Positions 50,897 to 64,000 of a stretch of DNA of 64,000 nt are shown here, piece after piece (within the stretch, counting starts at the first letter, position 1; each line of letters begins with the position of its first letter). Under the pieces are notes generated by a model. It was given only the letters and a program-made list of their open reading frames with translations. It had not been told where the DNA came from and searched no databases. This stretch comes from Anaerolineales bacterium (GTDB taxonomy: Bacteria > Chloroflexota > Anaerolineae > Anaerolineales > UBA11858). Location: positions 35,829 through 99,828 of the forward strand of contig JBARSJ010000071.1 in NCBI GenBank assembly GCA_049644685.1, given 5' to 3'. The translations under genes and the position numbers were made by a program.

Positions 50897-51050
50897 AAAT
50901 CCAACAATCCTCACTATTTATTAATTACTGTCCTTCATCTCCCAGTCCCCCAGTCACCTGTCCTGAGTAGCGCGACAGAGGAGCGCGTATCGAAGGGCTC
51001 AGTCCCAATTTCACACCCTTTCTCCCTCCGGCGTATCCAGCCGGTCCTCA

Positions 51051-51209
51051 CTATTTACTACTTACTGAATACTGATTACGGGGATGGCATTTTTCATGGA
51101 AGAGAATGAATCGTCTGATCCAGCTGGAATAAGCCTGTTCGGTACGGTAGGCGTAATTTTTTCGGCGGATGGTATCCCGTACCTGGTCAAGCAGTTTCTT
51201 TTTGGTCAT
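51051..51209 (-). pseudogene. intI: integron integrase (IntI) remnant: N-terminal ~43 codons only
   Basis: Not in ORF track. My translation: MTKKKLLDQVRDTIRRKNYAYRTEQAYSSWIRRFILFHEKCHP|RNQYSVSSK*. The part before | matches the IntI N-terminal SAM-like domain (IntI1 [38 protein letters not shown]); RBS AAGGGGG. Confidence 0.8.
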
Positions 51210-51223
51210 CAAACCCCCTTAGA

Positions 51224-51251
51224 TTGTGAAAAGTTGCTGTTATGCTATACT
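51224..51251 (+). promoter_or_regulatory. candidate cassette promoter (Pc-like)
   Basis: TTGTGA (51224-51229) - 16 nt - TATACT (51246-51251), pointing into the cassette array just outside the intI start. Confidence 0.35.
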
Positions 51252-51293
51252 TTGATTATATACTACTCAACAAGGAGAAAACACTGTACTGCG

Positions 51294-51379
51294 CGATAAC
51301 ACAATAATATATTACATACCAATAGTAGGATAACAACCTAATGTGTTATCCCGCAGGTGAAACATAATTAACGTTAGGC
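51294..51379 (+). other. candidate attI region ending in core site GTTAGGC
   Basis: GTTAGGC at 51373-51379; core-like GTTATC boxes at 51294-51300 (inverted), 51328-51334 (inverted), 51345-51351 (direct); GGATAACA-n8-TGTTATCC inverted repeat 51328-51351. Confidence 0.55.
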
Positions 51380-51401
51380 AGCCATTCGATCGGGGATAAG
51401 T

Positions 51402-52064
51402 ATGTCACAGATACTACGAATTCTAATCTACGTCATATTTGGGATCCCACTCATCTTAATCGTGCTGCATACGATAGTGCGAATCATCAGGCACTTTTAT
51501 AAGTTTCCAATGCCCGAATTCTTTGCCAATATCATCGACAATCCACTTCGCCGGCGAATCCAGCCCCCAAATAACACCCCTACCAGGCATAAGATTGAAC
51601 CAGGAATGAAAGTTTTGGAAGTAGGTCCAGGAAATGGAAGCTATACAATGGCAACTGCCCGTAGAGTTGGGGAGAATGGAAAAGTCATAACAATAGATAT
51701 CGAACCGAAGATGATTGATCGAGTTATGAAGAGAGCCCAAATTGAGGGTATTAAGAATATAGAGGCTCGCGTTGCGAATGTATTTGACCTTCCTTTCGAA
51801 GATGGTTATTTCGATGCAGTTTATATGATTACTGTGATTGGTGAGATCCCCACTCCAGAGAGAGCGATGAGAGAGTTCTATCGGGTTTTATCGCCGCAAG
51901 GCACATTGTCATTCAGTGAACTATTAATGGATCCTGATTATCCGCTCGCAGGTTCGATCGAAAAAAATGCACATTCGGTCGGCTTCCGACTACAGGAAAA
52001 GGTCGGGAACTTCTTCCATTACACATTAATTTTCGAGAAGGATAATTTATTGAAAGCTGCCTAA
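51402..52064 (+). CDS. cassette 1: class I SAM-dependent methyltransferase with N-terminal TM helix
   Basis: VLEVGPGNGSYT (motif I), ITIDIEP, FDAVYM; stop TAA lies inside the attC R'' box GCCTAAC. Confidence 0.85.
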   Translation: MSQILRILIYVIFGIPLILIVLHTIVRIIRHFYKFPMPEFFANIIDNPLRRRIQPPNNTPTRHKIEPGMKVLEVGPGNGSYTMATARRVGENGKVITIDIEPKMIDRVMKRAQIEGIKNIEARVANVFDLPFEDGYFDAVYMITVIGEIPTPERAMREFYRVLSPQGTLSFSELLMDPDYPLAGSIEKNAHSVGFRLQEKVGNFFHYTLIFEKDNLLKAA

Positions 52065-52153
52065 CCCCCGCTTCACCCGACAGCCGGTTAGGGCGCCCAG
52101 AGTTAGAGAACTGGAAAGGAAGACCCGGCTGCGGGTGAGCTCATCCGTTATGC
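52059..52153 (+). other. attC site 1 (95 bp)
   Basis: R'' GCCTAAC ... R' GTTATGC; arms CACCCGACAGCCGG / CCGGCTGCGGGTG pair leaving an unpaired A. Confidence 0.85.
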
Positions 52154-52162
52154 TAAATCCGA

Positions 52163-52570
52163 GTGCTTGGAATGCAAATCTTTACAATGACTGATATTAC
52201 GATGAAGAAAGAGAAAAAATATTCACCGAGTGGCATTATTACTATTACATTACTGCTTTCTCTCGCAGTGGTCAATGCTTTTTGGTTAATCGCAAGTTGG
52301 CATGGTGGTGCTTTGATAGCCCTGGCATTCTATTTAGTAATATCTTATCTTTGCCTCAGAAGGCAACATTTCCAAGCAGGTGTAATCGCGGGTATCCTCG
52401 GATTTGGAATTCATATATATGAGTTATTTGTACTGGGGACGAGTGAATTGATAGGAATTGATCAAGTTTACTTCTACGTGAATCTGATTCTTCCTATTCC
52501 TCTCACTATCACAAGTTATTTGGCATCTCACAAGGAATCTGCTGGACATGAAGAGAAAACAAATTCTTAA
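52163..52570 (+). CDS. cassette 2: small 4-TM membrane protein, unknown function
   Basis: Hydrophobic helices; start uncertain (GTG 52163, ATG 52172/52187/52202). Confidence 0.6.
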   Translation: MLGMQIFTMTDITMKKEKKYSPSGIITITLLLSLAVVNAFWLIASWHGGALIALAFYLVISYLCLRRQHFQAGVIAGILGFGIHIYELFVLGTSELIGIDQVYFYVNLILPIPLTITSYLASHKESAGHEEKTNS

Positions 52571-52583
52571 ACTGAGAGATTAC

Positions 52584-52669
52584 GCATAACCCACGCTCCA
52601 CCCGAACCTTCGATACGCCCATTCGCTACTCTCAGGGCTTCTCAGGACGGGTGAGCTTTTCCGTTAGCC
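52584..52669 (+). other. attC site 2 (86 bp)
   Basis: R'' GCATAAC (reverse complement of cassette-2 start GTTATGC) ... R' GTTAGCC; loop consists of a CCTTCG...CTCAGGAC element. Confidence 0.8.
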
Positions 52670-52713
52670 AGCATAATAGCTCATATATCTGACCAATATA
52701 GGAGGAGGAATTC

Positions 52714-53394
52714 ATGCTTACAAACAGTCAGCTGATCAGAATAATTTCCCTCTTTTCCTTGCTTGTGTGTTTGCCCTTCATCACCGCTTGTTCAAACGCT
52801 GAGCAGGATCTCCCCCTGGAGCGGGTATCCCTGTCGAAACACGCTTGCATAAGTGGTAGCAGCTTTACCCCACACCTGCCATTAGGCGTCAATGATCAAA
52901 TCAAGGCACCGGCTCTCGCCGGAGGTACTGTCAGGTCCGGTGATTTCCTGATTTCACTCTGGTTAATTTGCGATCCATCCCTTGCCTCAGATGACCCGGA
53001 TTTCCCAGAATACTCATGGCAAGAGTTCAGCGAAGTGCGGTATCTGGGCTTCCTTTCTGGTTGGGAGTATTTAGGGGACCCCCCGGACCAGGAGATCAAG
53101 GAATCTTTGACAATCAATGGGGAGGTCATAAGTGGGCACATAATCGCATCTCACACCGACCCTGAAAGAAGCTTGTCTAGAGGCGAGGGGCATGCAAGTT
53201 ATGGTCCGATCAACACCGAAAACCAAATCGTTGCCCAGGCCCTTGCCGCTGGAGAACCCGTTGATATCGTACTTACTATCTTTGGTTCTAAAACCCTTGC
53301 CGAAGTGCACCTGCGCGCATCGTTTGAGGAAACGCCGGATGGCTACCGCCTTCTCAGTGCCGAGATCCTGACGAACACTGGAAAACTACCATAA
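52714..53394 (+). CDS. cassette 3: lipoprotein of unknown function
   Basis: Signal peptide plus lipobox LPFITAC; RBS GGAGGAGG. Confidence 0.7.
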   Translation: MLTNSQLIRIISLFSLLVCLPFITACSNAEQDLPLERVSLSKHACISGSSFTPHLPLGVNDQIKAPALAGGTVRSGDFLISLWLICDPSLASDDPDFPEYSWQEFSEVRYLGFLSGWEYLGDPPDQEIKESLTINGEVISGHIIASHTDPERSLSRGEGHASYGPINTENQIVAQALAAGEPVDIVLTIFGSKTLAEVHLRASFEETPDGYRLLSAEILTNTGKLP

Positions 53395-53552
53395 TTGATA
53401 ACAGGAGGGCTTTACCGCCATGTTGATTGGGTATACCTACCATCACTTGATCGGGTATCATTCCCCATAATTATTGGTGCCCCGGTGTTTTACAATCTTC
53501 TCTTACCGCTGTTTTCTTTTTCCTTAATGGTCTCCCGTTTTATCTGAATGCG

Positions 53553-53652
53553 GGCTAACCCCCGCTCCACCCGACAGCCAGGGGCGGACCGGGGACCGAA
53601 AACGGAAGACCGGGAAAAACAATCTGGCTGCGGGTGAGCTATTCCGTTGGGC
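53553..53652 (+). other. attC site 3 (100 bp)
   Basis: R'' GGCTAAC (reverse complement of cassette-3 start GTTAGCC) ... R' GTTGGGC; arms CACCCGACAGCCAG / CTGGCTGCGGGTG. Confidence 0.85.
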
Positions 53653-53737
53653 GGCTGCGTTGCATGGTCAAGCTTCGAGAGAGCCAAAATAGTTGAGCAA
53701 TATACAGATGGCAGTCACAGCAGGAGGTCATGATCTG

Positions 53738-54397
53738 ATGAAATCAAATGTTGAGATAATCCAAGATATCGTTGAGCAGGTCGTTAATCAAAAGAAAATC
53801 GATATATATGACCAGTACATCAGCGAGGATTACATCTCGCGAGGATCTCCATATGTCGGTATGGGTTTTTCTGTAGACAGCTCAGGGAATAAGCACATCA
53901 TTGAAATCATTGTCCCTGGCAGCCCTGCCGAGGGGAAGCTCCAGGTGGGAGACGAGCTGCTCTGGGCAGAGGATGAACACCAGCGTTGGGTCACTTATGA
54001 GGATATAAAGCAGCGTATTTTGCAGAGTTATCGGGGCAACAAATACAAGGTGGGAGTACGTCGGGGTAATCAGACTCTCGAGGGTGAATTGACCAAAGAT
54101 TTATTCAAGGGCTTCGATACCCCCAAGGATCAGGCAAAGTCGGATCTGCGGGAGTTTATGACGAAAGAATTTCCAGATTTAAAAGCCACCATAAAGCAAA
54201 TTCTCGCAGATGGGGATATGGTTGTTTGTTTGCTGGAGTATCGCGGTAACCACGCTAACTTCGAGCGAGAGGCAGTTTGGCGAGAGGCCTGGTTTGTACG
54301 CCTGTCTGAAGGGAAAATCGTCGAGGACTGGACTGTTTTTGATGGAACTTCCTACTTTAATCAGCTTGGCTTCCAGATCATTCCGCCTAGCACCTGA
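53738..54397 (+). CDS. cassette 4: SnoaL/ester-cyclase-like protein with PDZ-like insertion
   Basis: ATG 53738 sits 10 nt after AGGAGG (ORF track starts at TTG 53693); NVEIIQDIVEQV... and DMVVCLLEYRGNH...GKIVEDWTVFD flank VPGSPAEGKLQVGDELL. Confidence 0.65.
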   Translation: MKSNVEIIQDIVEQVVNQKKIDIYDQYISEDYISRGSPYVGMGFSVDSSGNKHIIEIIVPGSPAEGKLQVGDELLWAEDEHQRWVTYEDIKQRILQSYRGNKYKVGVRRGNQTLEGELTKDLFKGFDTPKDQAKSDLREFMTKEFPDLKATIKQILADGDMVVCLLEYRGNHANFEREAVWREAWFVRLSEGKIVEDWTVFDGTSYFNQLGFQIIPPST

Positions 54398-54489
54398 TAC
54401 ATCTCGAATTTAAGATCTTTTCCTGCGATCGATTTTGGTATGTTGCAGGAAGAATGGGAAAATAGGATTTGAAAATAGTACTAAACGCC

Positions 54490-54615
54490 GCCCAACCACG
54501 CGTTAACGCTGACCCGGTTGTCGCCACGCTCCAGCCTGCTAGGTCTCGCGTAAAATCTTTTCGTCGTGCGGGGTTTAGAAGTCAAACCGCTGGGTAGGTT
54601 ACGCAAATGTTGGGT
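54490..54615 (+). other. attC site 4 (126 bp), divergent sequence class
   Basis: GCCGCCCAAC is the exact reverse complement of cassette-4 start GTTGGGCGGC; R' GTTGGGT; arms GCGTTAACGCTGACCC / GGGTAGGTTACGC with unpaired T and G. Confidence 0.75.
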
Positions 54616-54666
54616 TGCAGAAAATCAAAGATCACATTTAGAACATCAAAGTCATAAGGAGCATCA

Positions 54667-55578
54667 ATGTGCACATGTGAGAAATCGAAGATTGTATTTG
54701 ATACGACCACGTTAGAGAAGATAGTCAATGATCCCCAATGGGTTCTTGAAAATGAAGAGAAATTTTGGGCTGAGTACCGAGCTCAGATATTGACACGTAA
54801 ATGGGCAGAACATGTCAAATATGAAATTCCATACGAAGAATGGAGAGAGAAGATTGAAGGGTGGAAAAACTTATCGCTAGATGAACGAGAAAACCATGAA
54901 TTAATGAAGGTCGCCCAGCGGATACTATCAGCAAAAGATGAGTTTCTAGAGAAAGCATTGCCGCATGATTGTTCATTTTTGCCGGATGGCGTTGATTTGA
55001 GCGTAACAGTGCAGTTCACAGCATTTGTTCCACCATTTGCGTTTGCGATGGAAGACCTTGTAATCGATGTGGCCTCGAAGTATTGGAAAGGTAATCCAGA
55101 ACATGTATTGAATTTGCTTGTTCATGAAATATTTCATGTGGGTTACAGTTATTATCTAACAATACAAAATGAAAAGGAATTAGTTGAAGAAAGTTTATAT
55201 AAAATTCTGGACAATATTGTGAATGAAGGAATATGCACATATGTAGGGTATTGTGCTTTGCCAATCTTTCCAGTAGAAGATGAGCGGGATTATCGAATGC
55301 TGGAATATAATGATGAAGTTCACAGGTTGTTTGCGGATACGAATACTGTACTTTCGCAATATGGCATATTATCTGATGAAGAATTACAAAAACTATCTTG
55401 GGATAAGGGTGTCATTGGACGGGCATATTACGTAACAGGTGCCCATATGTGCAAAACAATTGATGAGACTAAGGGCAGAGATGCATTGATTGAAGTTTAC
55501 TCAAAAGGACCAATCTCAATTATTGAATATTACAACACAGTTGCAAATGATGATCTGAAAATATTACTTCCTGAATGA
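54667..55578 (+). CDS. cassette 5: putative HExxH zinc-peptidase-like protein (DUF2268-like)
   Basis: LLVHEIFHVGY motif; RBS AAGGAG; family assignment tentative. Confidence 0.6.
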   Translation: MCTCEKSKIVFDTTTLEKIVNDPQWVLENEEKFWAEYRAQILTRKWAEHVKYEIPYEEWREKIEGWKNLSLDERENHELMKVAQRILSAKDEFLEKALPHDCSFLPDGVDLSVTVQFTAFVPPFAFAMEDLVIDVASKYWKGNPEHVLNLLVHEIFHVGYSYYLTIQNEKELVEESLYKILDNIVNEGICTYVGYCALPIFPVEDERDYRMLEYNDEVHRLFADTNTVLSQYGILSDEELQKLSWDKGVIGRAYYVTGAHMCKTIDETKGRDALIEVYSKGPISIIEYYNTVANDDLKILLPE

Positions 55579-55591
55579 TAAGACAAGTGCA

Positions 55592-55722
55592 ACCCAACCC
55601 TCCATGTAGCCGACCCAGCGGGGCTGGGATGGTGAGCGTGGCGAAAATTGCACTCGAAGGTTCTAGATTACAATATTCGGGATTGAAAATCCCCGCTGGA
55701 TCGGCTAATGAAATCGTTATGC
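55592..55722 (+). other. attC site 5 (131 bp), divergent sequence class
   Basis: GCAACCCAAC is the exact reverse complement of cassette-5 start GTTGGGTTGC; R' GTTATGC; arms CATGTAGCCGACCCAGCGGGG / CCCCGCTGGATCGGCTAATG with unpaired G. Confidence 0.75.
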
Positions 55723-55748
55723 GGTAAAAAGTTTTATCTAGGTAAAAA

Positions 55749-57053
55749 ATGGTTAAGAAAAATGTAATTAATATCTTTTGCTTGGTCCTTGTTCTTTCAA
55801 GCTGCTCACCAGTCGACAAACATAACCCCGATCAGCCAAGCACAGAAGAACGTATCGATGATCTTTTCACTCGCTATACCAATGCAGGTGAGTTTTCTGG
55901 CTCCATCCTAGTCGCTAAAGGAGATCAAGTTCTCTTTAGGAATGGCTATGGTTTTACGGATCGGGAAGAACAAATTCCCAATACCCCAGATACACAGTTT
56001 AGTATCCAATCAATTACTAAACTTTTCACCTATGCCTCTGTAATGATGGAAGTTAAAGCAGACCATATTTCACTAAATGACCCAGTTGAGCAATATTTCC
56101 CCGGTTTTCCCAATGGTGACAAGATCACGATTGACCACCTCCTCCACCATCGGTCGGGACTCTTCCATTACCCTCATGAAGTACCCGATCATGAATACGG
56201 ATCACTCTCGACCCCCATCACAATCAATGCTCTGATCAAAGAATTCGAAGGCTATCCGTTGAAGTTTGAGCCTGGAGAACAATACGGATACAGCAACGCA
56301 GGCTACTCTATACTGGCGAGAGTAGTTGAGAATCTGAACGATACACCTTTTGACGAGTACCTTGAGGCAAAACTCTTCGCTCCCACGGGAATGCACCAGA
56401 CTACAGCTGATTGGGAAACAGCCTCTCAGGATATTGCAATAGGGTACGAGAAAGTGGATGGTGAGTTCATTCGCAGCTCAGCCGATCACCCATCCCACTT
56501 CATTGGGTCCGGAACAACCTACACCACGATTGACGATATGTATAGCTGGTACAAAGCCGTTTATATCAACGGCTCGATGTCTGAATTCTCATCTGGGGGA
56601 GGAGATGGTGGCGGGATGGGATACCGAGCTATATTCTGGCCTATACCCTCCTTCGATCTGGTAATCATTATCCTGAGTAACTATCGGGATGCACCTGTTT
56701 ATGAGCTTGTAACTGAGGTGGTTGATATTCTGTTAGAAGAGACCACATTCATTGATCATGATCCAAAAACCTTGGAAGCTTTAATTGGTCACTACATGGC
56801 TGATTCGGGTTATGGAGTATTCAACTACCGGATTTATGGATCAAATGAAAAATTATTTGTGTCAGTCACCGATTTCCTTGGTGTATCACGCGTCTATGAA
56901 CTCCGCCCCATCTCACCAAATCAACTCGCATTCTTGACGGATGGACGGCTCACGGGCCAAACGCTCACATTCAAATGGGGGGAAGATGCCAATTCTCACG
57001 AGTTTCTGTTCGACATGAACTTATTGCAGTTGAAGGCCATACGCGATGATTAA
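55749..57053 (+). CDS. cassette 6: beta-lactamase-fold serine hydrolase (class C/PBP-like) lipoprotein
   Basis: Lipobox VLSSC; SxxK (SITK), YxN (YSN); 434 aa. Confidence 0.8.
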   Translation: MVKKNVINIFCLVLVLSSCSPVDKHNPDQPSTEERIDDLFTRYTNAGEFSGSILVAKGDQVLFRNGYGFTDREEQIPNTPDTQFSIQSITKLFTYASVMMEVKADHISLNDPVEQYFPGFPNGDKITIDHLLHHRSGLFHYPHEVPDHEYGSLSTPITINALIKEFEGYPLKFEPGEQYGYSNAGYSILARVVENLNDTPFDEYLEAKLFAPTGMHQTTADWETASQDIAIGYEKVDGEFIRSSADHPSHFIGSGTTYTTIDDMYSWYKAVYINGSMSEFSSGGGDGGGMGYRAIFWPIPSFDLVIIILSNYRDAPVYELVTEVVDILLEETTFIDHDPKTLEALIGHYMADSGYGVFNYRIYGSNEKLFVSVTDFLGVSRVYELRPISPNQLAFLTDGRLTGQTLTFKWGEDANSHEFLFDMNLLQLKAIRDD

Positions 57054-57118
57054 TATTGGGATAGATTGGTTGCGATTGATCAAGTTTTGATACTGTTATT
57101 AATTGTAAGAATTCGACC

Positions 57119-57244
57119 GCTTAACCCCCGCTCCACCTGACTGCCGGTTTTTTACTGTTATCCCGCTTTTATTCCCCCTTATCGGTTTCAGTTCTATAAT
57201 CAATACCAGAAACACCTGGCAGCAGGTGAGCTCATCCGTTATAA
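57119..57244 (+). other. attC site 6 (126 bp)
   Basis: ACCGCTTAAC vs expected ACCGCATAAC (9/10 to cassette-6 start); R' GTTATAA; arms CACCTGACTGCCGG / CCTGGCAGCAGGTG. Confidence 0.8.
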
Positions 57245-57283
57245 AGCAATTAGGAATACGGCTAACTCCATGGAGGTAAATTC

Positions 57284-58108: not shown

Positions 58109-58112
58109 TGTT

Positions 58113-58277
58113 TTATAACCCCCGCTCCACCCGACAGCCAGGTTGGATGGCAATTATAATGGGATGGGCATTAAATCTTTAATAACAAGACCAGCAGACT
58201 TTTTGTTTTATACTGATTAAGGGCTGCGGGTGCCCTTCGCTGTACTCAGGATGCTTCGCGAAGCTCATCCGTTAGGC
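58113..58277 (+). other. attC site 7 (165 bp) with nested 29-nt insert
   Basis: R'' TTATAAC ... R' GTTAGGC; GGGTG[CCCTTCGCTGTACTCAGGATGCTTCGCGA]AGCTCATCC. Confidence 0.8.
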
Positions 58278-58440
58278 TTTTTTTTTAATAATCATTGTTT
58301 GGCCTTTGGATCATGTGGGTTATGCAGAAACTATAAACGATGTGATTGTCAGTCACAATAAGACAAGTTGAAACAATAAAAGTATAATGCCATCACCATT
58401 CACAAGTTCGATATGAAAAATCTATTTAGGAGAATAATCA

Positions 58441-58779
58441 ATGGAAAGTTCTAATAAAACAAACCATCTGGCAATTGTTAGTTTTGTTAGTGGGATGATA
58501 GCCCTCATATGTATTGTGTTAATATTTGTATTTTACAACTCGGCAGAAACCGCAGAGGGCATCATCAACATCACAGATGGAATAATAATGCCTGTGCGAA
58601 ATCTCTGTGTGATAGTGACGCTATTAACGGGTATTCTTGCGGTTAAAGATATAAAGAAAACGGGCGGAACTAAAAAAGGAAAAATATTTTCCTGGTTCGG
58701 CATAGTTGTTGGAGCTGGCTGGATCCTCTTTGGATTGCTTGTTGGCATAACATTTCTCATAGCTGAAATTCTTCACTGA
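58441..58779 (+). CDS. cassette 8: small 3-TM membrane protein (DUF4190-like)
   Basis: RBS AGGAG; HLAIVSFVSGMIALICIVLIF-type helices. Confidence 0.6.
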   Translation: MESSNKTNHLAIVSFVSGMIALICIVLIFVFYNSAETAEGIINITDGIIMPVRNLCVIVTLLTGILAVKDIKKTGGTKKGKIFSWFGIVVGAGWILFGLLVGITFLIAEILH

Positions 58780-58812
58780 ATCCTTAAGCTGAGAATAGAA
58801 TCGCCAAGAGCC

Positions 58813-58967
58813 ACCTTACTCCCGCTCCACTAGACAGCAAGATGGACGCTGCGCTCACGACAGGGGTAAAGAGACGGAAGACGGGAGACCGGAGGTCGCT
58901 TCGCTTCCGACCGGGTAGACTGATACTGATACTTAGATCCTTCTGCGAGTGAGTTCATCCGGTAGGC
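58813..58967 (+). other. attC site 8 (155 bp), both core boxes mutated
   Basis: ACCTTAC in place of RYYYAAC and GGTAGGC in place of GTTRRRY; internal blocks CCCGCTCCAC...GAGTTCATCC conserved. Confidence 0.65.
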
Positions 58968-58970
58968 ACT

Positions 58971-59567
58971 TTGAAACAAGATATTTTGGTCGAGATAATC
59001 GATATGGGAAAACAAAGCCTTAGCCTCCTTGAACGCTTTTCTTTGAGGGCAGAAGAATTGATAATGACACGATTGGTGCCAAAGGACAATCCAGGCCCCA
59101 TATTCAAGAGACTGTTCAAAACACCGATATTCTTTTACCGTATTGGCCTTCCTCTGTTTAGCAGCTTCGTCCTGTTATTGACTACAACCGGGCGAAAGAG
59201 TGGGAAACAGCGATACACGCCGCTTGAATATCAACGCGAGCAAGGAACGGGTAATCCAATCATCATGGCAGGTTGGGGGGGAAAAACGGATTGGAGGCTC
59301 AATATTAAGGCAAATCCGCATGTTCATGTTCAGATCGGACAAGAATGCTTTGACGCCATCGCTGAACCTCTTAGCGACGAAGAAATCGCAGCAAGGTTGA
59401 CAGAGGCCATGAAGATAAATCCAAGGAGTGCGAAGATATAGTCACGGTGGGTGGGAGAAAGTGTGAGTCTAGCGGATCCTGGCAGTGTAGCCAGAGCTGT
59501 GAAGTATTTTCCATGCTTTCGCTTGAAACCGATCAATGAATATGTTGGAAGTGATCAAAGCACCTAA
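58971..59567 (+). pseudogene. cassette 9: deazaflavin(F420)-dependent nitroreductase-family (DUF385) gene interrupted by in-frame TAG at 59439-59441
   Basis: LLLTTTGRKSGKQRYTPL, WRLNIKANPHVHVQ; the frame continues after TAG to TAA (59565-59567, inside R'') and encodes ...VKYFPCFRLKPI, resembling the family C-terminus. Confidence 0.65.
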
Positions 59568-59802
59568 CCTCCGCTCCACCTGACTGCCGGGATGGTTCGC
59601 TGCGCGAACGACCGGGAGAAAGAGACCGATGACCGGGGGAGGTTTCACCTCCGACCGGTTTTACTGGGAAAGAAATACTGATTACTGACTTTTGTCCCGG
59701 ATGCGGGTGCCCTTCGCTGTACTCAGGATGCTTCGCGACCCTTCGTCTCCCCCTTGGCTACGCTCGGGGCTCGCTCAGGACAAATGAGCTCATCCGTTAG
59801 GA
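59562..59802 (+). other. attC site 9 (241 bp) with two tandem nested inserts
   Basis: R'' ACCTAAC ... R' GTTAGGA; arms CACCTGACTGCCGGG / CCCGGATGCGGGTG; inserts at 59710-59738 and 59739-59781. Confidence 0.8.
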
Positions 59803-59846
59803 TGCAGCTTTGATTAGATCAACCAATAAAAAGGAAGGTCGGAAAG

Positions 59847-60758
59847 ATGACAAATAAAGATGGAGAACCAAAACCTTCAGAAACCGCCTTATTTGCTGCC
59901 TTGCGTAGAACCATTGCAAATATAGACTTCAATAATGAGAATTTTGGACCAGACAATATGGCCGAATATTTTTTACCCCCTCACTTTAGATTTTTTCTAA
60001 AATTCAAAAAAATACGAGCAAATACCAAAGCAAAATTAAATGACTTTTTGCCTGGGTTGAATGAATACATGATTGCTAGAACAGCCTATTTTGATCGGCT
60101 ATTCAATGATGCTTTACACAACGAAACACCTCAAATTGTACTGCTTGGCGCAGGATACGATACACGAGCGTATCGTTTTGCAGAGTTAAATCAAGGGACA
60201 GAAATATTTGAATTGGATATTGGTCCAACCCAAGAGAGAAAAAAGAAATGTTTAAAAAAGGCAAAGATAGCCATCCCCCAACAAGTCACTCTCGTTCCAA
60301 TAAATTTCAATAAAGACTCATTGAAAGATGTTCTAGAAAAAGCGGGATTTCAAGACCATAAAAAAACTCTCTTTGTATGGGAAGGGGTGAGCTATTACCT
60401 CGATGCGGAATCAGTCAATTCAACCTTGGATTTCGTCAGCCATCTTCCAAATCATGAAAGTTCTATAGCATTTGATTACACTATTTCAATTTCAGAAGAA
60501 AAAATAAATGATTATTATGGCGTAAAAGAATTTTCTCAAACGATGAAGGAGCAACATGCAGATGAGAAACTCATGTTTTCCATTGATGAAGATGAAACAG
60601 AATCATTTTTAGAGCTGAGAGGGTTGAATATAGTTGAACATTTGGATAGTGAAGAGATCGAGAGAACATTTTTAATAGAAGAAAATGGATCACTAATAGG
60701 TCAAATTACCGGGCATTTTCGTTTTGTATTGGCTACACAAAAAAAGCTTCAAGAGTAA
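59847..60758 (+). CDS. cassette 10: SAM-dependent O-methyltransferase of the LCMT / TIGR00027-like family
   Basis: QIVLLGAGYDTRAYRF, WEGVSYYL motifs; RBS AGGAAGG. Confidence 0.8.
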   Translation: MTNKDGEPKPSETALFAALRRTIANIDFNNENFGPDNMAEYFLPPHFRFFLKFKKIRANTKAKLNDFLPGLNEYMIARTAYFDRLFNDALHNETPQIVLLGAGYDTRAYRFAELNQGTEIFELDIGPTQERKKKCLKKAKIAIPQQVTLVPINFNKDSLKDVLEKAGFQDHKKTLFVWEGVSYYLDAESVNSTLDFVSHLPNHESSIAFDYTISISEEKINDYYGVKEFSQTMKEQHADEKLMFSIDEDETESFLELRGLNIVEHLDSEEIERTFLIEENGSLIGQITGHFRFVLATQKKLQE

Positions 60759-60764
60759 TGAGAA

Positions 60765-60924
60765 ACCTAACCCCCGCTGCACTTGTCAGCCAGGGGCAGA
60801 CCGAGGACGGATGACGGAAGACCGAAGCCTGGAAACTTACGCCAGGCAGCAGGCGGTCTTCGCAAACCTGTCCTGAGTGAAACGAAGAGTAATCAAAGGG
60901 CATCGCTAAGCTCATCTGTTAGGC
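60765..60924 (+). other. attC site 10 (160 bp) with inverted nested insert
   Basis: R'' ACCTAAC ... R' GTTAGGC; arms CACTTGTCAGCCAGG / CCAGGCAGCAGGCG; insert between GGCG and AGCTCATCT. Confidence 0.8.
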
Positions 60925-60930
60925 ACTAAA

Positions 60931-61383
60931 ATGGCAAAAACTAATCCAATATCAAAAGAATTGATCGCACCGTGCGGAATGAATTGTGCCATCTGCAGCC
61001 GGTATCTTTCCTACCTCAATAATTTGAATCGCAGCCAGTGTATTGGTTGTCGTCCGCGGAATGAGGTTTGTAAATACCTATTTCAAAAATGTACTGGCAT
61101 AAATCATTCTTCAAAAGGAGATGCTGCCTTTTGCTATGATTGCGATCAGTTTCCTTGTAAGCAAATAAATCGGATGGATGACCGCTATAGAAAAAATTAT
61201 GCGATGAGCGTGAAGGATAATTTGATATTTATAGACCAGATGGGAATCAAGAAATTTATTAAAGAACAACAGCAGAAATATCAATGTTCTAAATGTGGTA
61301 ATCAAATATCAATACATAATAGAAAATGTTTCAATTGCGATGAGGTAACACGCTTGGTTGAAAAAAGTAGTAAGAATTATTAA
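60931..61383 (+). CDS. cassette 11: Cys-rich protein (DUF3795-like)
   Basis: CGMNCAICSRY, CIGCRPRNEVC, CYDCDQFPC, CSKCGN, CFNC clusters; ATG only 6 nt after the R' box. Confidence 0.65.
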   Translation: MAKTNPISKELIAPCGMNCAICSRYLSYLNNLNRSQCIGCRPRNEVCKYLFQKCTGINHSSKGDAAFCYDCDQFPCKQINRMDDRYRKNYAMSVKDNLIFIDQMGIKKFIKEQQQKYQCSKCGNQISIHNRKCFNCDEVTRLVEKSSKNY

Positions 61384-61397
61384 TGATTTATCCTAGT

Positions 61398-61600
61398 ACC
61401 TAACCCCCGCTTCACCTGACCCGGCACCTTCGGTGCGGTAAGCAGTAGTTTTGTAAGTAATAAGCAGTTTAAAAATTCAGATTAATGACAGCGTTAGTGC
61501 TGAGATTGGTTCTATTTACTATTTACTACTTACTAATTACTAAGCCGAGCGGGTGCCCTTCGCTGTACTCAGGATGCTTCGAGAAGATCATCCGTTAGGT
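61398..61600 (+). other. attC site 11 (203 bp) with heptamer tract and nested 29-nt insert
   Basis: AGTACCTAAC vs expected AGTGCCTAAC (9/10); R' GTTAGGT; GGGTG[CCCTTCGCTGTACTCAGGATGCTTCGAGA]AGATCATCC. Confidence 0.8.
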
Positions 61601-61613
61601 CGCACAGAATTCT

Positions 61614-62195
61614 ATGATGATTGATGTAATACAAATTCTGTTTCTGTTTTCTGTCATACTTGAAATGATATATTTAGTTTTATTTATTCTGACGAAAAAG
61701 TTACCAGGCTTTCGCTTCTGGCCTCCCCCAAAGCCTCAATCTTGGCAATTCTTTGTGTCTTGGTTAATTGCGGGTTTGGTGGCTGTAAACTTTCTTGTCT
61801 TGGGACTGTTAGATTTCGACAGTTTCATACTCCCCAACTTAAAACAAAGGCTTCCATTTGCCATCAGTCTCTTTTTGATAGGTTCATTGTTAGGTTCTTG
61901 GGCATTCGGGACATTTGGGCTGAAGAATACAATTGGTGTTGATAATAAGCTAATCACAGGTGGTCCATATAAATATTCTCGGAACCCACAATACATTGGG
62001 GACAGTTTGAACATTGTTGGATATATGGTATTAACGAATTCATGGATGATCTGGATTATCGGTTTGTTAGGTGTATTATTGAATCTTCTTGCACCGTCTA
62101 TTGAAGAACCCTGGCTAGAGGAACGGTATGGAGAAAGATACCTTGAATACAAACGCAGGGTTCCGAGGTTCTTTGGTAAAGTTGGGACGGGATAA
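61614..62195 (+). CDS. cassette 12: ICMT/PEMT-family membrane methyltransferase
   Basis: GGPYKYSRNPQYIGD, multiple TM helices, C-terminal EEPWLEERYGERYLEYKRRVPRF. Confidence 0.8.
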   Translation: MMIDVIQILFLFSVILEMIYLVLFILTKKLPGFRFWPPPKPQSWQFFVSWLIAGLVAVNFLVLGLLDFDSFILPNLKQRLPFAISLFLIGSLLGSWAFGTFGLKNTIGVDNKLITGGPYKYSRNPQYIGDSLNIVGYMVLTNSWMIWIIGLLGVLLNLLAPSIEEPWLEERYGERYLEYKRRVPRFFGKVGTG

Positions 62196-62200
62196 GCGCG

Positions 62201-62370
62201 TCCTAACCCCCGCTCCCCTTCGACTGTGCTCAGGATCTGCGACACCTGACCGCCTATAAACTGCCTGAGTGACTTGGAGATTATATGATGGAGTGAAGCG
62301 AGATTCGCCAAATTGGAATATACTGAATACCGATTACTGATTACTGAAAACTAGTGTCAGGGGGCAGGTG
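62201..62370 (+). other. attC site 12, 5' half plus L' arm only; R' box not found
   Basis: GCGTCCTAAC vs expected GCGACCTAAC (9/10); 27-nt insert 62216-62242 in the left arm; GGCAGGTG at 62363-62370 is followed by another element instead of AGCTCATCCGTTAGG. Confidence 0.55.
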
Positions 62371-62453
62371 CCCTTCGATTCTGCTACGCTCCACTCAGGA
62401 CAGGCTTGTCGAGGGGCTTTGCGAATCAGGGGAACAAATTATCACCTGATTGT

Positions 62454-62483
62454 TTACCACTAACCACAATAGCAGTATATAAT
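62454..62483 (+). promoter_or_regulatory. candidate internal promoter upstream of MFS gene
   Basis: TTACCA - 18 nt - TATAAT (62478-62483), 38 nt upstream of ATG 62521. Confidence 0.35.
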
Positions 62484-62520
62484 CAGACAATATTCACGAA
62501 GCCTCGTTGGAGCAAACACA

Positions 62521-63762
62521 ATGGAAACAACTGAAAAACAACCTTTGCTGACACCCCTGATGAGATGGTTCATGTTCGCCATGGTGCTGGCTAATGTAGC
62601 CAGCGCCATGTATCCGATGCTCATGCCCATCTACCTGACGGAGCTGGGCGCCAGCATCACTCAGGTTGGGTTAATATTCACACTCACATCAGTCGTGGTT
62701 TTGATCTTACAGATTTTCGGCGGCTGGGTTTCCGACTCAATTGGACGCCTGCGTTCGATTGCTATCGGCAGTGTGGGCGGGATATTTGGTTTTGTGGCGG
62801 TGCTGCTAGCCCCAACCTGGCAGTGGATGTTAGCCGCCTTATGTGTGCTTCAGTTCCCCTATGCTCTTGTCGGACCAAGTTTTGGGGCTTTTATCGCGGA
62901 GAATTCCACCACAGAGAACCGCGGTAAAGTGTATGGGATCACCGACACAATCTTCCAGATCACCGGCGTAATCGGCCCACCCGTAGGCGGGTTACTGGTC
63001 GGTCGATATGGGTTCAAAATGATGTTCCTGGTTTCTGGGAGTCTTTATGCTTTAGCGGCTATTTTACGGATCTGGATGGCTTCCACAGTCCGCACCACCA
63101 CAGAAGCCAACCCCCGAAAACTCTCGACATCTTCCTTGAAAACCAGCGTAAAAACCATGTTCGGCATGATCCTGGGCGGCGGGGTGCTGACCTGGATTTT
63201 CGTCACCGATGGGGTGCGTGATACCGCTTTCCGGCTCTCGGGCGAGCTACAGCCTCTTTACCTGGAACAGGTCGCTGGGATCTCCGTGGAGCAGATCGGC
63301 ATTTTGGGGTCAATCTTCTCCATCGCGATGATGTTTACCCCCATCCTTTCGGGAAAAATGGTCGATAAATATGGGGAACGCGTTCCGATCTCTTTGGGGT
63401 TCCTGCTGGTGTTCTTCGCTTTCATGATCTTCTTGCAGGTCGGTAACTTCGTTGGATTTGCGATAACCTGGATCGTTTTTGGGATCGGAGTGGGGCTGCT
63501 CAGCCCGGCGTATCAATCCCTGATTTCAAAGGTGGTACCCCAAAAGATGTTAGGTACCTTCAGCGGATTATTCCGCAGCAGCCTGGGATTGATCTCTCTC
63601 CCAGCCCCCTACATCGGCGCCCGGCTGTGGGAAACTTTCTCTCCCAAAGTTCCCTTCGTCATCACTTCGATCGCGGCCCTGATTACCATCATCCCGACCT
63701 GGTTGTTCTTCAAAGTACCGGATGAGCCGCCAGATCTCGATCCTGCACCCGAAACGAACTGA
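62521..63762 (+). CDS. cassette 13 (or fused 12/13): MFS transporter
   Basis: 12 predicted TM helices; motif-A-like GWVSDSIGRLRS; RBS GGAG. Confidence 0.85.
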   Translation: METTEKQPLLTPLMRWFMFAMVLANVASAMYPMLMPIYLTELGASITQVGLIFTLTSVVVLILQIFGGWVSDSIGRLRSIAIGSVGGIFGFVAVLLAPTWQWMLAALCVLQFPYALVGPSFGAFIAENSTTENRGKVYGITDTIFQITGVIGPPVGGLLVGRYGFKMMFLVSGSLYALAAILRIWMASTVRTTTEANPRKLSTSSLKTSVKTMFGMILGGGVLTWIFVTDGVRDTAFRLSGELQPLYLEQVAGISVEQIGILGSIFSIAMMFTPILSGKMVDKYGERVPISLGFLLVFFAFMIFLQVGNFVGFAITWIVFGIGVGLLSPAYQSLISKVVPQKMLGTFSGLFRSSLGLISLPAPYIGARLWETFSPKVPFVITSIAALITIIPTWLFFKVPDEPPDLDPAPETN

Positions 63763-63926
63763 AATAGCCGGGGGTTACAAAAAATGGCAATTTGCCTTCT
63801 TTGCCAAAAAGAAAAGGATGTCTGGTTTTTGGATAGCAAAACGAGAACTAAGCAATGTTTTTGAAAATCTTTATTGGTGGAATTGAACTTAAGTTACTTA
63901 TGCCATTATCATTACCTATAGTTACA

Positions 63927-64000
63927 GGCTAACCCCCGCTGCCCTTTACCCGAAGGGCAGACTTGTCCGCGACCGAAGTTCGTGCCGAAGGGCCTGTCCT
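63927..64000 (+). other. attC site 13 (truncated by window end)
   Basis: GGCTAACCCCCGCTGCC start matches the family; ends with CGAAGGGCCTGTCCT, an inverted CCCTTCG...CAGGACAGG-type element. Confidence 0.65.

What the first reader, a model, noticed from the sequence alone, without database searches (positions are those of the whole stretch)
51051..64000. Chromosomal integron with at least 13 cassettes immediately after the parAB-amidohydrolase core block
From 52.06 kb onward every plus-strand ORF is followed by an imperfect palindrome. Each starts with an inverse-core-like box (GCCTAAC, GGCTAAC, ACCTAAC...) and ends with a core-like box (GTTAGGC, GTTGGGC, GTTATGC...), and unpaired bases interrupt the stems. 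This is the textbook attC architecture. The decisive point is that the first ~10 nt of each cassette (G|TTxxxxxxx) are the reverse complement of the R'' end of that cassette's own attC: cassette 1 GTTAGGCAGC/GCTGCCTAAC 10/10, cassette 4 GTTGGGCGGC/GCCGCCCAAC 10/10, cassette 5 GTTGGGTTGC/GCAACCCAAC 10/10, cassettes 3, 6, 7, 11 and 12 9/10. That pattern is expected only if each unit once existed as a circle closed at G|TT. Most attCs belong to one homogeneous family (TAACCCCCGCTCCACC[CT]GAC...GGGTGAGCTCATCCGTTAGG), as in sedentary chromosomal integrons. The array is divergent from an intI stub and begins at a GTTAGGC attI-like site. Cassette ORFs look visibly AT-richer than the core genes (estimated by eye, not computed).
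Basis: partly seen in the sequence, partly recalled or inferred. Interest (0 to 1): 0.85.

Follow-up and report, generated by a model that had tools for sequence, protein, structure and literature searches.

The report
Chromosomal integron array, integrase gene truncated
This is a genuine gene-cassette array (a chromosomal integron) in an uncultured Anaerolineales bacterium whose own integrase gene has been cut down to a 43-codon remnant; it is a well-documented example of a known kind of element, not a new system.

Summary
From 51.37 kb to the end of the window, 13 same-strand units each end in an attC-type imperfect palindrome. Eleven belong to one family (TAACCCCCGCTCCACC...GAGCTCATCCGTTAGG). 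The first 10 nt of each cassette match the reverse complement of the R'' end of its own attC (mean 8.6/10, against 6.2 for other attCs; 0 of 200,000 permutations reach this). That is the footprint of circles closed at G|TT. The hairpin covaries across 102 family members from related genomes and has conserved bulged T and G on the bottom strand.

The array starts at a conserved attI (TAATTAACG|TTA) next to a divergent intI remnant. Only 43 of about 320 codons remain. A relative carries a full-length intI pseudogene at the same chromosomal site (TIGR02249, 456 bits) and a different first cassette. Two cassettes recur in other genomes with different neighbours.

By IntegronFinder's classes this is not a "complete integron". 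It is a cassette array lacking an integrase (a CALIN), derived from a sedentary chromosomal integron.

Caveats:
- Only 4 sites are clean canonical attCs.
- One site has mutated AAC/GTT triplets and one lacks R'.
- Several sites carry 22-50-nt accessory hairpin modules.
- The AT-richness claim is weak.
- The end of the array is unknown.

Integrons are already known in Chloroflexota, so interest is moderate.

The parts
51051..51212 (-). intI remnant. It is a 52/53-codon ORF of which only the first ~43 codons (51209..51081) are integrase-derived. The last ~9 codons are read from filler sequence.
   Evidence: The translation is MTKKKLLDQVRDTIRRKNYAYRTEQAYSSWIRRFILFHEKCHP|RNQYSVSSK*. It matches Pfam PF13495 positions 1-39 of 85 (E = 1.2e-12) and the NCBIfam integron-integrase models at positions 1-40. 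tblastn with a relative's IntI finds only aa 1-50 and no other intI in the window. The same junction is present in independent assemblies L003 and L004.
50897..51080 (.). Repeat-rich filler. It occupies the place where a relative carries the rest of intI plus a PhdYeFM/PIN toxin-antitoxin pair. It contains direct repeats TCCTCACTATTTAYTAMTTACTG (50908 and 51045), TACTGAT-type heptamers and one CCTTCG..TCAGGA element on the - strand.
   Evidence: Homology to L005 is interrupted between window 50892 and 51080, where L005 has 1,766 bp. The repeats are shown. The filler has no significant homologue among the fetched loci.
51224..51251 (+). Candidate cassette promoter (Pc-like), TTGTGA-16 nt-TATACT with an extended -10 TG, pointing into the array.
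   Evidence: This is a consensus scan, and one hit equals the number expected by chance. The TATGCTATACT -10 segment is conserved in the intI-attI spacers of L005, L028, L029, L048, L054 and L090. Function is inferred, not shown.
51355..51379 (+). attI region, with the crossover point between G51373 and T51374 (..ACATAATTAACG|TTAGGC).
   Evidence: TAATTAACGTTA is invariant in the window and in L005, L028, L029, L048, L054 and L090. The sequences diverge a few bases after it. Homology between the window and L005 ends at 51385.
51374..52147 (+). Cassette 1: class I SAM-dependent methyltransferase (ORF 51402-52064), with attC1 at 52059-52153 (canonical).
   Evidence: Pfam. CM R1 scores 91.2 bits, E = 7e-26. 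The bottom-strand fold shows R box, spacer and an L box with two bulges. Own-R'' match is 10/10.
52148..52663 (+). Cassette 2: small membrane protein (ORF 52163-52570), with attC2 at 52584-52669 (canonical).
   Evidence: CM scores 48.6 bits, E = 1.5e-12. An 85% identical copy of this cassette lies in another MAG (L034) with different neighbours, and the homology is bounded by R' and the cassette's own attC.
52664..53646 (+). Cassette 3: putative lipoprotein (ORF 52714-53394), with attC3 at 53553-53652 (canonical).
   Evidence: CM scores 77.4 bits, E = 1.4e-21. Fold z = -3.3. Own-R'' match is 9/10.
53647..54609 (+). Cassette 4: PDZ/SnoaL-like protein (ORF 53693-54397), with attC4 at 54490-54615, of a different attC type (GCCCAAC...GTTGGGT).
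   Evidence: Pfam. Own-R'' match is 10/10. The fold is not better than shuffles (z = +0.8), although the centroid structure shows R and L boxes.
54610..55716 (+). Cassette 5: DUF5700 putative Zn peptidase (ORF 54667-55578), with attC5 at 55592-55722, of a different attC type.
   Evidence: Pfam. Own-R'' match is 10/10. The stem is ~20 bp with one bulge, z = -2.4.
55717..57238 (+). Cassette 6: beta-lactamase-fold/serine hydrolase protein (ORF 55749-57053), with attC6 at 57119-57244 (canonical, long loop).
   Evidence: Pfam PF00144. CM scores 51.6 bits, E = 1.7e-13. Relative to attC1 it carries compensatory changes CACCTG/CAGGTG and ACTGCC/GGCAG.
57239..58271 (+). Cassette 7: unknown secreted protein (ORF 57284-58108), with attC7 at 58113-58277. 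A 29-nt accessory module (58233-58261) lies between L' and the 3' spacer.
   Evidence: Own-R'' match is 9/10. The MFE fold does not give the attC structure.
58272..58961 (+). Cassette 8: DUF4190-like membrane protein (ORF 58441-58779), with attC8 at 58813-58967 and mutated R boxes (ACCTTAC / GGTAGGC).
   Evidence: own-R'' match only 5/10. A 78% identical cassette lies in L042.
58962..59796 (+). Cassette 9: F420H2-dependent quinone reductase family (ORF 58971-59441, possibly truncated), with attC9 at 59562-59802 (241 nt) carrying two tandem modules.
   Evidence: Pfam PF04075, profile positions 18-105 of 130. Own-R'' match is 7/10.
59797..60918 (+). Cassette 10: leucine carboxyl methyltransferase family (ORF 59847-60758), with attC10 at 60765-60924. 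Its L box is degenerate and it holds an inverted CCTTCG..TCAGGA-type element.
   Evidence: Pfam PF04072. Own-R'' match is 8/10.
60919..61594 (+). Cassette 11: DUF3795/zinc-ribbon protein (ORF 60931-61383), with attC11 at 61398-61600 (203 nt) carrying a heptamer-repeat loop and a 3'-arm module.
   Evidence: Pfam. The whole attC is ~77% identical to an attC in another genome (L010:7266-7469), with no detectable similarity in the adjoining cassette DNA. Own-R'' match is 9/10.
61595..62425 (+). Cassette 12: PEMT/ICMT-family methyltransferase (ORF 61614-62195), with attC12 starting at 62201. It has modules in both arms, and the 3' spacer and R' are missing.
   Evidence: Pfam. Own-R'' match is 9/10. 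After the module end (..GCTTTGCGAA) the expected AGCTCATCCGTTAGG is absent.
62426..64000 (+). Unit 13: MFS transporter (ORF 62521-63762, GC 53%), with the start of attC13 at 63927 cut by the window end. Its 5' boundary is undefined because attC12 lacks R'.
   Evidence: Pfam PF07690. The attC 5' arm is GGCTAACCCCCGCTG followed by a module.

Best explanation
The region is a sedentary chromosomal integron of an uncultured Anaerolineales bacterium that has lost its integrase.

How the array was built: an integron integrase inserted circular promoterless cassettes one at a time. Each insertion recombined the folded bottom strand of a cassette's attC with the double-stranded attI site at G|TT. Excision works the same way, through attC x attC recombination. 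This process left 13 same-orientation cassettes downstream of a Pc-like promoter.

What happened afterwards: intI was truncated to its first ~43 codons. The array can no longer be rearranged by a cis-encoded enzyme and is decaying at its distal sites.

Shown here:
- the attC architecture and its covariation;
- the circle-junction signature of the cassettes;
- the attI junction;
- the integrase remnant and its full-length homologue at the same locus in a relative;
- the occurrence of individual cassettes in other genomes.

Inferred from established integron biology:
- the recombination chemistry;
- use of the bottom strand;
- promoter function;
- present-day inactivity.
For: 1. Integrase.
- The stub matches integron-integrase models at positions 1-40.
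- At the same locus (rpmH-yidC-jag-parA-parB-amidohydrolase) in a relative with ~89% nucleotide identity, a full-length intI with two in-frame stops scores 456 bits on TIGR02249 (cut-off 265).
- Intact homologues sit next to arrays of the same attC family in L028, L048 and L054.

2. attI.
- TAATTAACG|TTA is invariant in seven loci, and similarity is lost just after it.

3. Circle signature.
- Own-cassette R'/R'' complementarity averages 8.58/10 against 6.24 for non-own; 0 of 200,000 permutations reach this.

4. Structure, tested on 102 distinct family sites.
- 84.7% of cells are paired, against 29-41% when partners are slid.
- There are 233 double-sided changes, against 107 +/- 12 in shuffles (0/500).
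- The bulged T and G are conserved and lie 7 nt apart on the '' arm of the bottom strand. This is the same spacing as the aadA7 extrahelical bases G16 and T23 (PMC5027507).

5. Covariance model.
- Model R1, trained on relatives only, finds four window sites at E = 7e-26 to 1.5e-12, all on the + strand.

6. Modularity.
- Cassettes 2 and 8 recur at 85% and 78% identity in other MAGs, bounded by attCs and with different neighbours.
- The first cassette differs between the window and L005.

7. Chromosomal context.
- The neighbours are rpmH, yidC, jag and parAB, on a 102.8-kb contig.
Against: - IntegronFinder's generic attC model could not be run, and Rfam has no hit here.
- Only 4 of 13 sites score with the family model.
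- The long sites 7 and 9 that were folded do not adopt the attC structure as their MFE, and site 4 folds no better than shuffles.
- No experiment shows recombination.
- The integrase is absent, so the 'integron' is defined historically rather than functionally.
- Unit 13 has no defined 5' junction.
Confidence: 0.93

Rival explanations
1. The array is still an active integron. The truncated intI is irrelevant because a second, intact integron integrase encoded elsewhere in the same genome recombines these attC sites in trans.
For: Integron integrases accept divergent attC sites, and CALINs often co-occur with intI elsewhere in the genome (PMC4889954). One related MAG (JBARSF01) carries the family attC on many contigs. 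The proximal attCs 1-3 and 6 are structurally pristine. The first cassette differs from that of L005 although both intI copies are dead.
Against: No other intI lies in the 64-kb window. The rest of the genome could not be retrieved. Distal sites show decay: mutated triplets in attC8 and a missing R' in attC12. Insertion at attI normally needs the cognate integrase.
Confidence: 0.2
2. The integrase truncation is an assembly or binning artefact, and the real genome has an intact intI.
For: The sequence is a metagenome-assembled genome, and repeats such as the heptamers at 51045-51082 can cause mis-joins.
Against: The same amidohydrolase-filler-stub-attI-cassette 1 junction is present without gaps at 99.0-99.6% identity in two independent ENA assemblies (L003, L004). 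It is also present in Logan contigs from two runs, L107 and L108, which overlap the filler-stub join at 100%.
Confidence: 0.03
3. The palindromes are ordinary intergenic repeats (REP/BIME-like elements or intrinsic terminators), unrelated to site-specific recombination.
For: They are G+C-rich imperfect palindromes lying just downstream of ORFs. Some carry additional small repeats and heptamer tracts, as dispersed repeats do.
Against: - They occur only next to an intI remnant and only on one strand.
- They start with RYYYAAC and end with GTTRRRY.
- The own-cassette complementarity has no explanation under a REP or terminator model.
- Homology between genomes breaks exactly at these sites.
- The same family flanks intact integron integrases elsewhere.
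- No T-tract follows the stems.
Confidence: 0.01

Closest known systems
Sedentary chromosomal integrons such as the Vibrio cholerae superintegron (VCR repeats)
   Same: - It has a chromosomal location.
- It is a long same-orientation array of mostly small cassettes with unknown or accessory functions.
- It has one homogeneous, lineage-specific attC family.
- The array is divergent from intI, with an attI junction.
- The attC has a bottom-strand hairpin with extrahelical bases (architecture as described in PMC5027507 and PMC8618304).
   Different: - The integrase is truncated.
- Only 13 cassettes are visible.
- No toxin-antitoxin cassettes were seen in the array.
- The attC consensus differs.
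- Many sites carry accessory hairpin modules, and site lengths reach 241 nt.
- The host is Chloroflexota (Anaerolineales).
CALIN elements (clusters of attC sites lacking an integron integrase; Cury et al. 2016, PMC4889954)
   Same: There are at least 2 attC sites spaced less than 4 kb apart with no functional intI nearby. Origin by loss of intI is one of the routes proposed in that paper.
   Different: Here the origin can be read directly. An N-terminal intI remnant and the attI are still in place. The remnant would escape the published pseudogene screen, which requires more than 50% coverage of the C-terminal IntI or PF00589 profiles.
Xanthomonas chromosomal integrons with frequently inactivated intI at a fixed chromosomal site (own knowledge: Gillings et al. 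2005; see also Nemergut et al. 2008, PMC2426708)
   Same: The integron sits at a conserved chromosomal position. intI is independently inactivated in different lineages, while cassette content differs between relatives (6 of 9 family loci have a damaged intI).
   Different: The phylum, the flanking gene (amidohydrolase/parAB rather than ilvD) and the attC family all differ. This comparison rests partly on recalled literature, not on a test made here.

Membership tests
Complete integron (IntegronFinder definition: intI plus at least one attC) | A gene for an integron integrase (a tyrosine recombinase with the IntI-specific additional domain) adjacent to the array | tested here: not met
   Only codons 1-43 remain, and they match model positions 1-40. 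tblastn finds no other intI in the window. The relative L005 has the full-length pseudogene (TIGR02249, 456 bits).
CALIN / integron cassette array | Two or more attC sites on one strand, spaced by cassette-sized intervals (<4 kb) | tested here: met
   There are 13 sites on the + strand, spaced 525-1,726 bp apart. Four have a family-CM E-value of 1.5e-12 or better.
attC recombination site | R'' RYYYAAC at the 5' end and R' GTTRRRY at the 3' end, with invariant AAC/GTT | tested here: met
   The AAC/GTT triplets are intact in 11 of the 12 sites whose both ends lie in the window or are testable. Several R boxes depart from the strict RYYY/RRRY consensus (e.g. GTTATGC, GTTATAA, TTATAAC). attC8 has TAC/GGT, attC12 lacks R', and attC13 is cut off.
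attC recombination site | An imperfect hairpin (R box, unpaired spacer, L box, variable loop) with extrahelical bases on the '' arm of the bottom strand | tested here: met
   The folds of sites 1, 2, 3 and 6 show this structure. Covariation holds over 102 family sites, with conserved bulged T and G. The result is inconclusive for the long or module-bearing sites and for site 4.
attC recombination site | Crossover at G|TT, so that a cassette's 5' end derives from its own attC | tested here: met
   Own-cassette complementarity is 8.58/10 against 6.24 for non-own, and 0 of 200,000 permutations reach this.
attC recombination site | Detection by the generic attC covariance model of IntegronFinder, or by HattCI | not testable with these tools
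   The model is not available here, and Rfam has no attC hit. A family-specific surrogate model was used instead.
Integron platform | An attI site between intI and the first cassette, with a Pc promoter directed into the array | tested here: inconclusive
   The TAATTAACG|TTA junction is conserved in seven loci, and the sequence diverges after it. A promoter-like site lies at 51224-51251, but one such hit is expected by chance. No functional test was made.
Sedentary chromosomal integron | Chromosomal, at a conserved position in related genomes, with homogeneous attC sites (formal criteria: present in 100% of the pan-genome, or more than 19 attC sites) | tested here: inconclusive
   The neighbours are chromosomal genes, and the locus is the same in L005 at ~89% identity. 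Eleven of 13 attCs belong to one family. The array runs off the window at 13 sites and the contig could not be extended.
REP elements / intrinsic terminators | Dispersed on both strands genome-wide, or a stem followed by a T-tract; no recombination junction signature | tested here: not met
   The family is restricted to one strand of one locus. The sites show the junction signature, and homology between genomes breaks at them.

The most novel reading that the evidence does not exclude
The Anaerolineales attC family may include a structural variant that I did not find described. In it, a conserved 22-50-nt accessory module is inserted exactly opposite the extrahelical G, between the spacer and the L box.

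The module has the form [C/T]CCT-loop-AGG[G/A]T GCTTCGC[A/G]A, and sometimes two occur in tandem. On the bottom strand it is predicted to form one or two mini-hairpins, which turns the simple attC hairpin into a multi-branched junction.

The module is found almost only inside attCs. It dominates an array next to an intact intI (L085, L086, L048). Its stem-closing pair shows C-A combinations, which are wobble pairs only on the bottom strand. These points suggest it could be a tolerated or functional part of the recombination site, for example a modulator of folding or integrase binding, rather than junk.
Probability: 0.3. Interest if true: 0.55.

Novelty: new member of a known kind. Interest (0 to 1): 0.35.

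Why it matters
The locus is a clean, internally verifiable chromosomal integron in a poorly studied phylum. NCBI's annotation shows only a 'phage integrase N-terminal SAM-like domain' protein there.

It documents how a CALIN arises. The intI is truncated in place with attI still present. intI has decayed independently and repeatedly across related genomes: 6 of the 9 loci examined are damaged.

The N-terminal stub would escape C-terminal-profile pseudogene screens. Some CALINs described as 'without recognisable pseudogene' may therefore have the same origin.

The work also yields a lineage-specific attC family, with 229 sites collected and a covariance model built. This could be used to assign environmental cassettes to Anaerolineales.

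The accessory-module attCs are a testable lead on how much structural elaboration integron integrases tolerate.

None of this changes the general picture of integrons.

Tried and rejected
- Extending the array beyond 64 kb: exact-protein look-ups for the MFS, PEMT, DUF3795 and methyltransferase cassettes returned only contigs of 1-3 kb or nothing. The 102.8-kb NCBI contig is not retrievable, so the array end is unknown.
- Rfam at gathering threshold: only a tRNA was found, and there was no attC family hit.
- Plain MFE folding of the long sites 58110-58280 and 59559-59806: neither gives the attC structure, and the z-scores are about -0.4, because insertions interrupt the arms.
- Family covariance model on the long, mutated and other-type sites: none is significant. 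The model therefore supports only 4 of 13 sites.
- Looking for a replication origin next to the array, to test the leading-strand-template orientation rule: DnaA boxes are not enriched (18 found, 16.6 expected) and gene strands are mixed. The cumulative GC-skew minimum near 46 kb is not enough, so no claim is made.
- Homology search for the 187-bp filler that replaces intI: nothing was found beyond the same population's own contigs. The deletion mechanism remains open.
- Reading the small CCCT..AGGGTGCTTCGCAA module as an independent mobile mini-element: rejected, because 21 of 29 copies sit in the identical attC position and most of the others are followed by a second module or a divergent attC spacer.
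- The first protein search with the 46-aa stub returned only short proteins (43-80 aa). It identified the source, but not intact integrases. Those came from the DNA pattern scan instead.

Full report
**What is in the sequence**

The interval from 45.9 to 50.9 kb encodes, all on the + strand:
- Jag/KhpB;
- a PfkB-like protein;
- ParA;
- ParB;
- a 525-aa amidohydrolase.

The next features, in order, are:
- a 184-bp repeat-rich spacer;
- a short ORF on the minus strand (51212..51051);
- a 160-bp spacer;
- thirteen + strand ORFs (51.4-63.8 kb), each followed by an imperfect palindrome.

The repeat finder groups eleven of these palindromes into one family:
- The 5' arm is [RYY]TAACCCCCGCTCCACC[C/T]GAC.
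- The 3' arm is GC[G/A]GGTGAGCTCATCCGTTAGG.
- The 16-mer core, with up to 3 mismatches, occurs 11 times, all on the + strand between 52,062 and 63,930.
- Only 0.27 matches are expected by chance, and there are 2 marginal hits in the other 51 kb.
- Two sites, 54490-54615 and 55592-55722, have the same RYYYAAC...GTTRRRY ends but unrelated interiors.

**The decisive observation holds**

For each cassette I compared two sequences: the first 10 nt, counted from the G of the preceding GTT, and the reverse complement of the 10 nt ending at the AAC of that cassette's own attC.
- The matches are 10, 8, 9, 10, 10, 9, 9, 5, 7, 8, 9, 9, mean 8.58.
- Non-own combinations average 6.24.
- The attC that physically donates the R' averages only 5.73.
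- None of 200,000 permutations reaches the observed sum.
- The result also holds when only positions 8-12, outside the conserved core, are scored.

This is what is expected if each unit was once a circle closed at G|TT and was then opened at the same point on insertion. I could think of no repeat-element or terminator model that predicts it.

**The integrase remnant**
- The minus-strand ORF translates to MTKKKLLDQVRDTIRRKNYAYRTEQAYSSWIRRFILFHEKCHP followed by nine unrelated residues.
- It matches Pfam Phage_int_SAM_4 positions 1-39 of 85 (E = 1.2e-12).
- Its best NCBIfam hits are the two integron-integrase models, at positions 1-40.
- The identical 52-aa protein is deposited at NCBI as MGB2954977.1. 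Its annotation is 'phage integrase N-terminal SAM-like domain-containing protein' from an Anaerolineales MAG, on a 102.8-kb contig.

**The same locus in a relative**

The relative is GCA_004196255.1, locus L005, at about 89% nucleotide identity in the core genes.
- It shows the same rpmH-yidC-jag-parA-parB-amidohydrolase synteny.
- This is followed by a PhdYeFM/PIN toxin-antitoxin pair and a full-length intI reading frame interrupted by two in-frame stops.
- With the stops masked, that protein scores 456 bits on TIGR02249 'integron integrase' (cut-off 265) over the whole model.
- In the window, the 1,766 bp holding the rest of intI and the toxin-antitoxin pair are replaced by about 187 bp of repeats.
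- The truncation is not an assembly artefact. Two independent ENA assemblies and Logan contigs carry the same junction at 99-100% identity.
- No other intI is present in the window.

**attI and promoter**
- Homology between the window and L005 on the array side ends at 51385, twelve bases after the G of GTTAGGC at 51373. The two first cassettes are unrelated.
- The junction TAATTAACGTTA is invariant in the intI-proximal spacers of the window and of L005, L028, L029, L048, L054 and L090. The sequences diverge a few bases later.
- This is the expected picture for an attI crossover at G|TT.
- A sigma-70-like site, TTGTGA-16-TATACT with an extended -10, faces the array at 51224-51251. One such hit is expected by chance.
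- Its -10 region is conserved in the relatives. I treat it as a candidate Pc only.

**Structure of the sites**

Bottom-strand DNA folds of sites 1, 2, 3 and 6 give:
- a short R-box helix;
- an unpaired spacer;
- an L-box helix of 13-17 bp with two single-base bulges on the 3' ('') arm.

To test this with independent sequences I scanned one genome per species for the 5'-arm 20-mer.
- The scan found 98 stretches, mostly in Anaerolineales/Chloroflexota MAGs.
- I extracted 229 complete sites from these.

On 102 distinct arm pairs:
- the proposed pairing is kept in 84.7% of cells, against 29-41% when partners are slid by 1-3 columns;
- there are 233 double-sided (compensatory) changes, against 107 +/- 12 in shuffles (0/500);
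- L-box positions switch between C-G, U-A and G-C;
- the bulged T and the bulged G are conserved and lie seven positions apart.

That spacing is the same as for the G16 and T23 extrahelical bases of attC-aadA7 (PMC5027507).

A covariance model built only from 60 relatives' ~100-nt sites finds four window sites, all on the + strand:
- 52059-52153 (91 bits, E = 7e-26);
- 53553-53652 (77 bits);
- 57123-57240 (52 bits);
- 52584-52669 (49 bits).

**Limits of the structural evidence**

The other nine sites do not score with that model.
- Site 4 folds no better than shuffled sequence.
- MFE folding of the long sites 7 and 9 does not give the attC structure.
- For these nine sites the evidence is the conserved arm motifs plus the own-cassette junction signature.
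- Site 8 has both conserved triplets mutated (ACCTTAC and GGTAGGC) and the weakest junction match, 5/10.
- Site 12 loses the expected AGCTCATCCGTTAGG directly after an inserted module, so the 5' boundary of the MFS unit is undefined.
- Site 13 is cut by the window end.
- 'At least 13 cassettes' is therefore fair, but the distal part of the array looks degraded.

**Cassettes behave as modules**
- Cassette 2 (52138-52605) is 85% identical to a segment of another MAG, L034. That homology starts at the spacer/R' of the upstream attC and stops inside the cassette's own attC. The neighbours on both sides are different.
- Cassette 8 is 78% identical to a cassette in L042.
- Whole long attCs such as 61397-61600 recur at ~77% identity in other genomes, with no detectable similarity in the adjoining cassette DNA.
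- Cassette products are the usual mixed bag:
  - three methyltransferases;
  - a beta-lactamase-fold hydrolase;
  - DUF5700 and DUF3795 proteins;
  - an F420H2-quinone-reductase-family protein;
  - an MFS transporter;
  - small membrane or secreted proteins.
- They are compositionally heterogeneous, at 35-53% GC. They are only modestly AT-richer than the window as a whole, 44.3% against 46.4% in 1-kb blocks (p = 0.09).

**How it most likely works**

By analogy with characterised integrons (PMC5027507, PMC5371416, PMC8618304), the array was assembled by IntI-catalysed recombination between folded bottom-strand attC sites and attI. Expression would come from a promoter in the intI-attI spacer. 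These steps are inferred, not shown here.

With intI reduced to 43 codons, the platform cannot act in cis. Whether an integrase elsewhere in the genome still moves these cassettes could not be tested, and I give that reading a probability of 0.2.

Among nine loci of this family where the intI region could be read:
- three have an intact gene (L028, L048, L054);
- six are damaged in different ways: stops in L005 and L020, frameshifts in L090, and truncations in L029, L069 and the window.

Loss therefore looks recurrent and independent.

**Comparison with what is known**

Integrons have been reported in Chloroflexi/Chloroflexota (PMC4889954, PMC8618304, PMC9668308). Arrays without an integrase (CALIN) and intI pseudogenes are well described.

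This locus fails the 'complete integron' definition, having no functional intI. It meets the CALIN definition, and it has the hallmarks of a sedentary chromosomal integron:
- a fixed chromosomal site shared with a relative;
- a homogeneous attC family.

The published pseudogene screen needs more than 50% coverage of C-terminal profiles, so it would miss this N-terminal stub.

Verdict: a new member of a known kind.

**The most unusual feature**

About 29 of the 229 family sites carry a conserved module between L' and the 3' spacer. These include window sites 7, 9 and 11. Variants of the module occur in the 5' arm of sites 12 and 13.
- The module has the form [C/T]CCT-loop-AGG[G/A]T GCTTCGC[A/G]A.
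- It lies exactly opposite the extrahelical G.
- It is found almost only in this attC context.
- It dominates the array adjacent to an intact intI (L085, L086).
- In DNA-parameter folds of several bottom strands it forms two mini-hairpins between the R and L boxes.
- Its closing pair is C-G 15 times, C-A 10 times and never T-G. The C-A combinations can pair, as G-T wobbles, only on the bottom strand.

I did not find such a variant described in the papers I read. I also did not search exhaustively, and there is no functional evidence. It is a lead, not a finding.

Noticed in passing
window 58233-58261, 59710-59785, 61556-61584, 62216-62242, 62371-62425, 63941-64000; also L085, L086 and others: Conserved 22-50-nt accessory modules lie inside attC sites. 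They have the form [C/T]CCT-loop-AGG[G/A]T GCTTCGC[A/G]A and are sometimes tandem. They are inserted between the L box and the spacer, opposite the extrahelical G. On the bottom strand they are predicted to form mini-hairpins, and they are almost never found outside attCs.
   Followed up: partly
window 50919-50930, 51045-51082, 58211-58222, 59674-59688, 61512-61545, 62309-62351: Tandem heptamer tracts of the TACTGAT/TTACTAC type occur in the variable loops of the long attCs and directly at the intI truncation point. The pattern gives 17 matches against 3.3 expected. They resemble cyanobacterial short tandem heptamer repeats (a recollection, not tested here). Their role in the deletion is unknown.
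   Followed up: partly
loci L005, L020, L029, L069, L090 versus L028, L048, L054: Six of nine integron-integrase genes next to this attC family are damaged, each differently (stops, frameshifts, truncations). Decay of intI therefore looks recurrent and independent in these Anaerolineales lineages.
   Followed up: partly
L019, L059, L064, L089, L103 (Cloacimonadota MAGs and a single-cell genome); L043, L057, L071, L080, L084 and others: The same attC family, identical over a 20-mer and with complete sites, is found on contigs assigned to other phyla. The clearest case is several independent Cloacimonadota MAGs and one SAG, with 135-136 and 204-nt subtypes. This reflects either mis-binning of short contigs or real cross-phylum sharing of an attC type.
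   Followed up: no
L005:1959-2626 (absent from the window): A PhdYeFM/PIN toxin-antitoxin pair lies between intI and the amidohydrolase gene in the relative, outside the cassette array. It is missing from the window, together with most of intI.
   Followed up: partly
window 58971-59561: The cassette 9 ORF (F420H2-dependent quinone reductase family) covers only profile positions 18-105 of 130. It stops 120 nt before its attC. It may be a frameshifted or truncated gene.
   Followed up: no
window 46902-47036 versus L005:6535-6537: The PfkB-like gene (46698-47546) is intact in the window. The relative L005 lacks about 134 bp of it, and no gene is called there.
   Followed up: no
window 62426-63900: The MFS transporter unit has the highest GC of the array (53%, GC3 65%). 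Its upstream leader is about 100 nt long, and it has no intact upstream R'. It may have been acquired or fixed differently from the other cassettes.
   Followed up: no
window 40-50 kb: Cumulative GC skew reaches its minimum near 45-46 kb, next to the rpmH-yidC-jag-parAB cluster, a gene set that often lies close to oriC. DnaA boxes are not enriched and gene strands are mixed, so no origin could be called. If an origin is there, the attC bottom strands would lie on the leading-strand template, as in most sedentary integrons.
   Followed up: partly
window 26307-26379 (-): This is a tRNA gene and the only Rfam gathering-threshold hit in the window.
   Followed up: no
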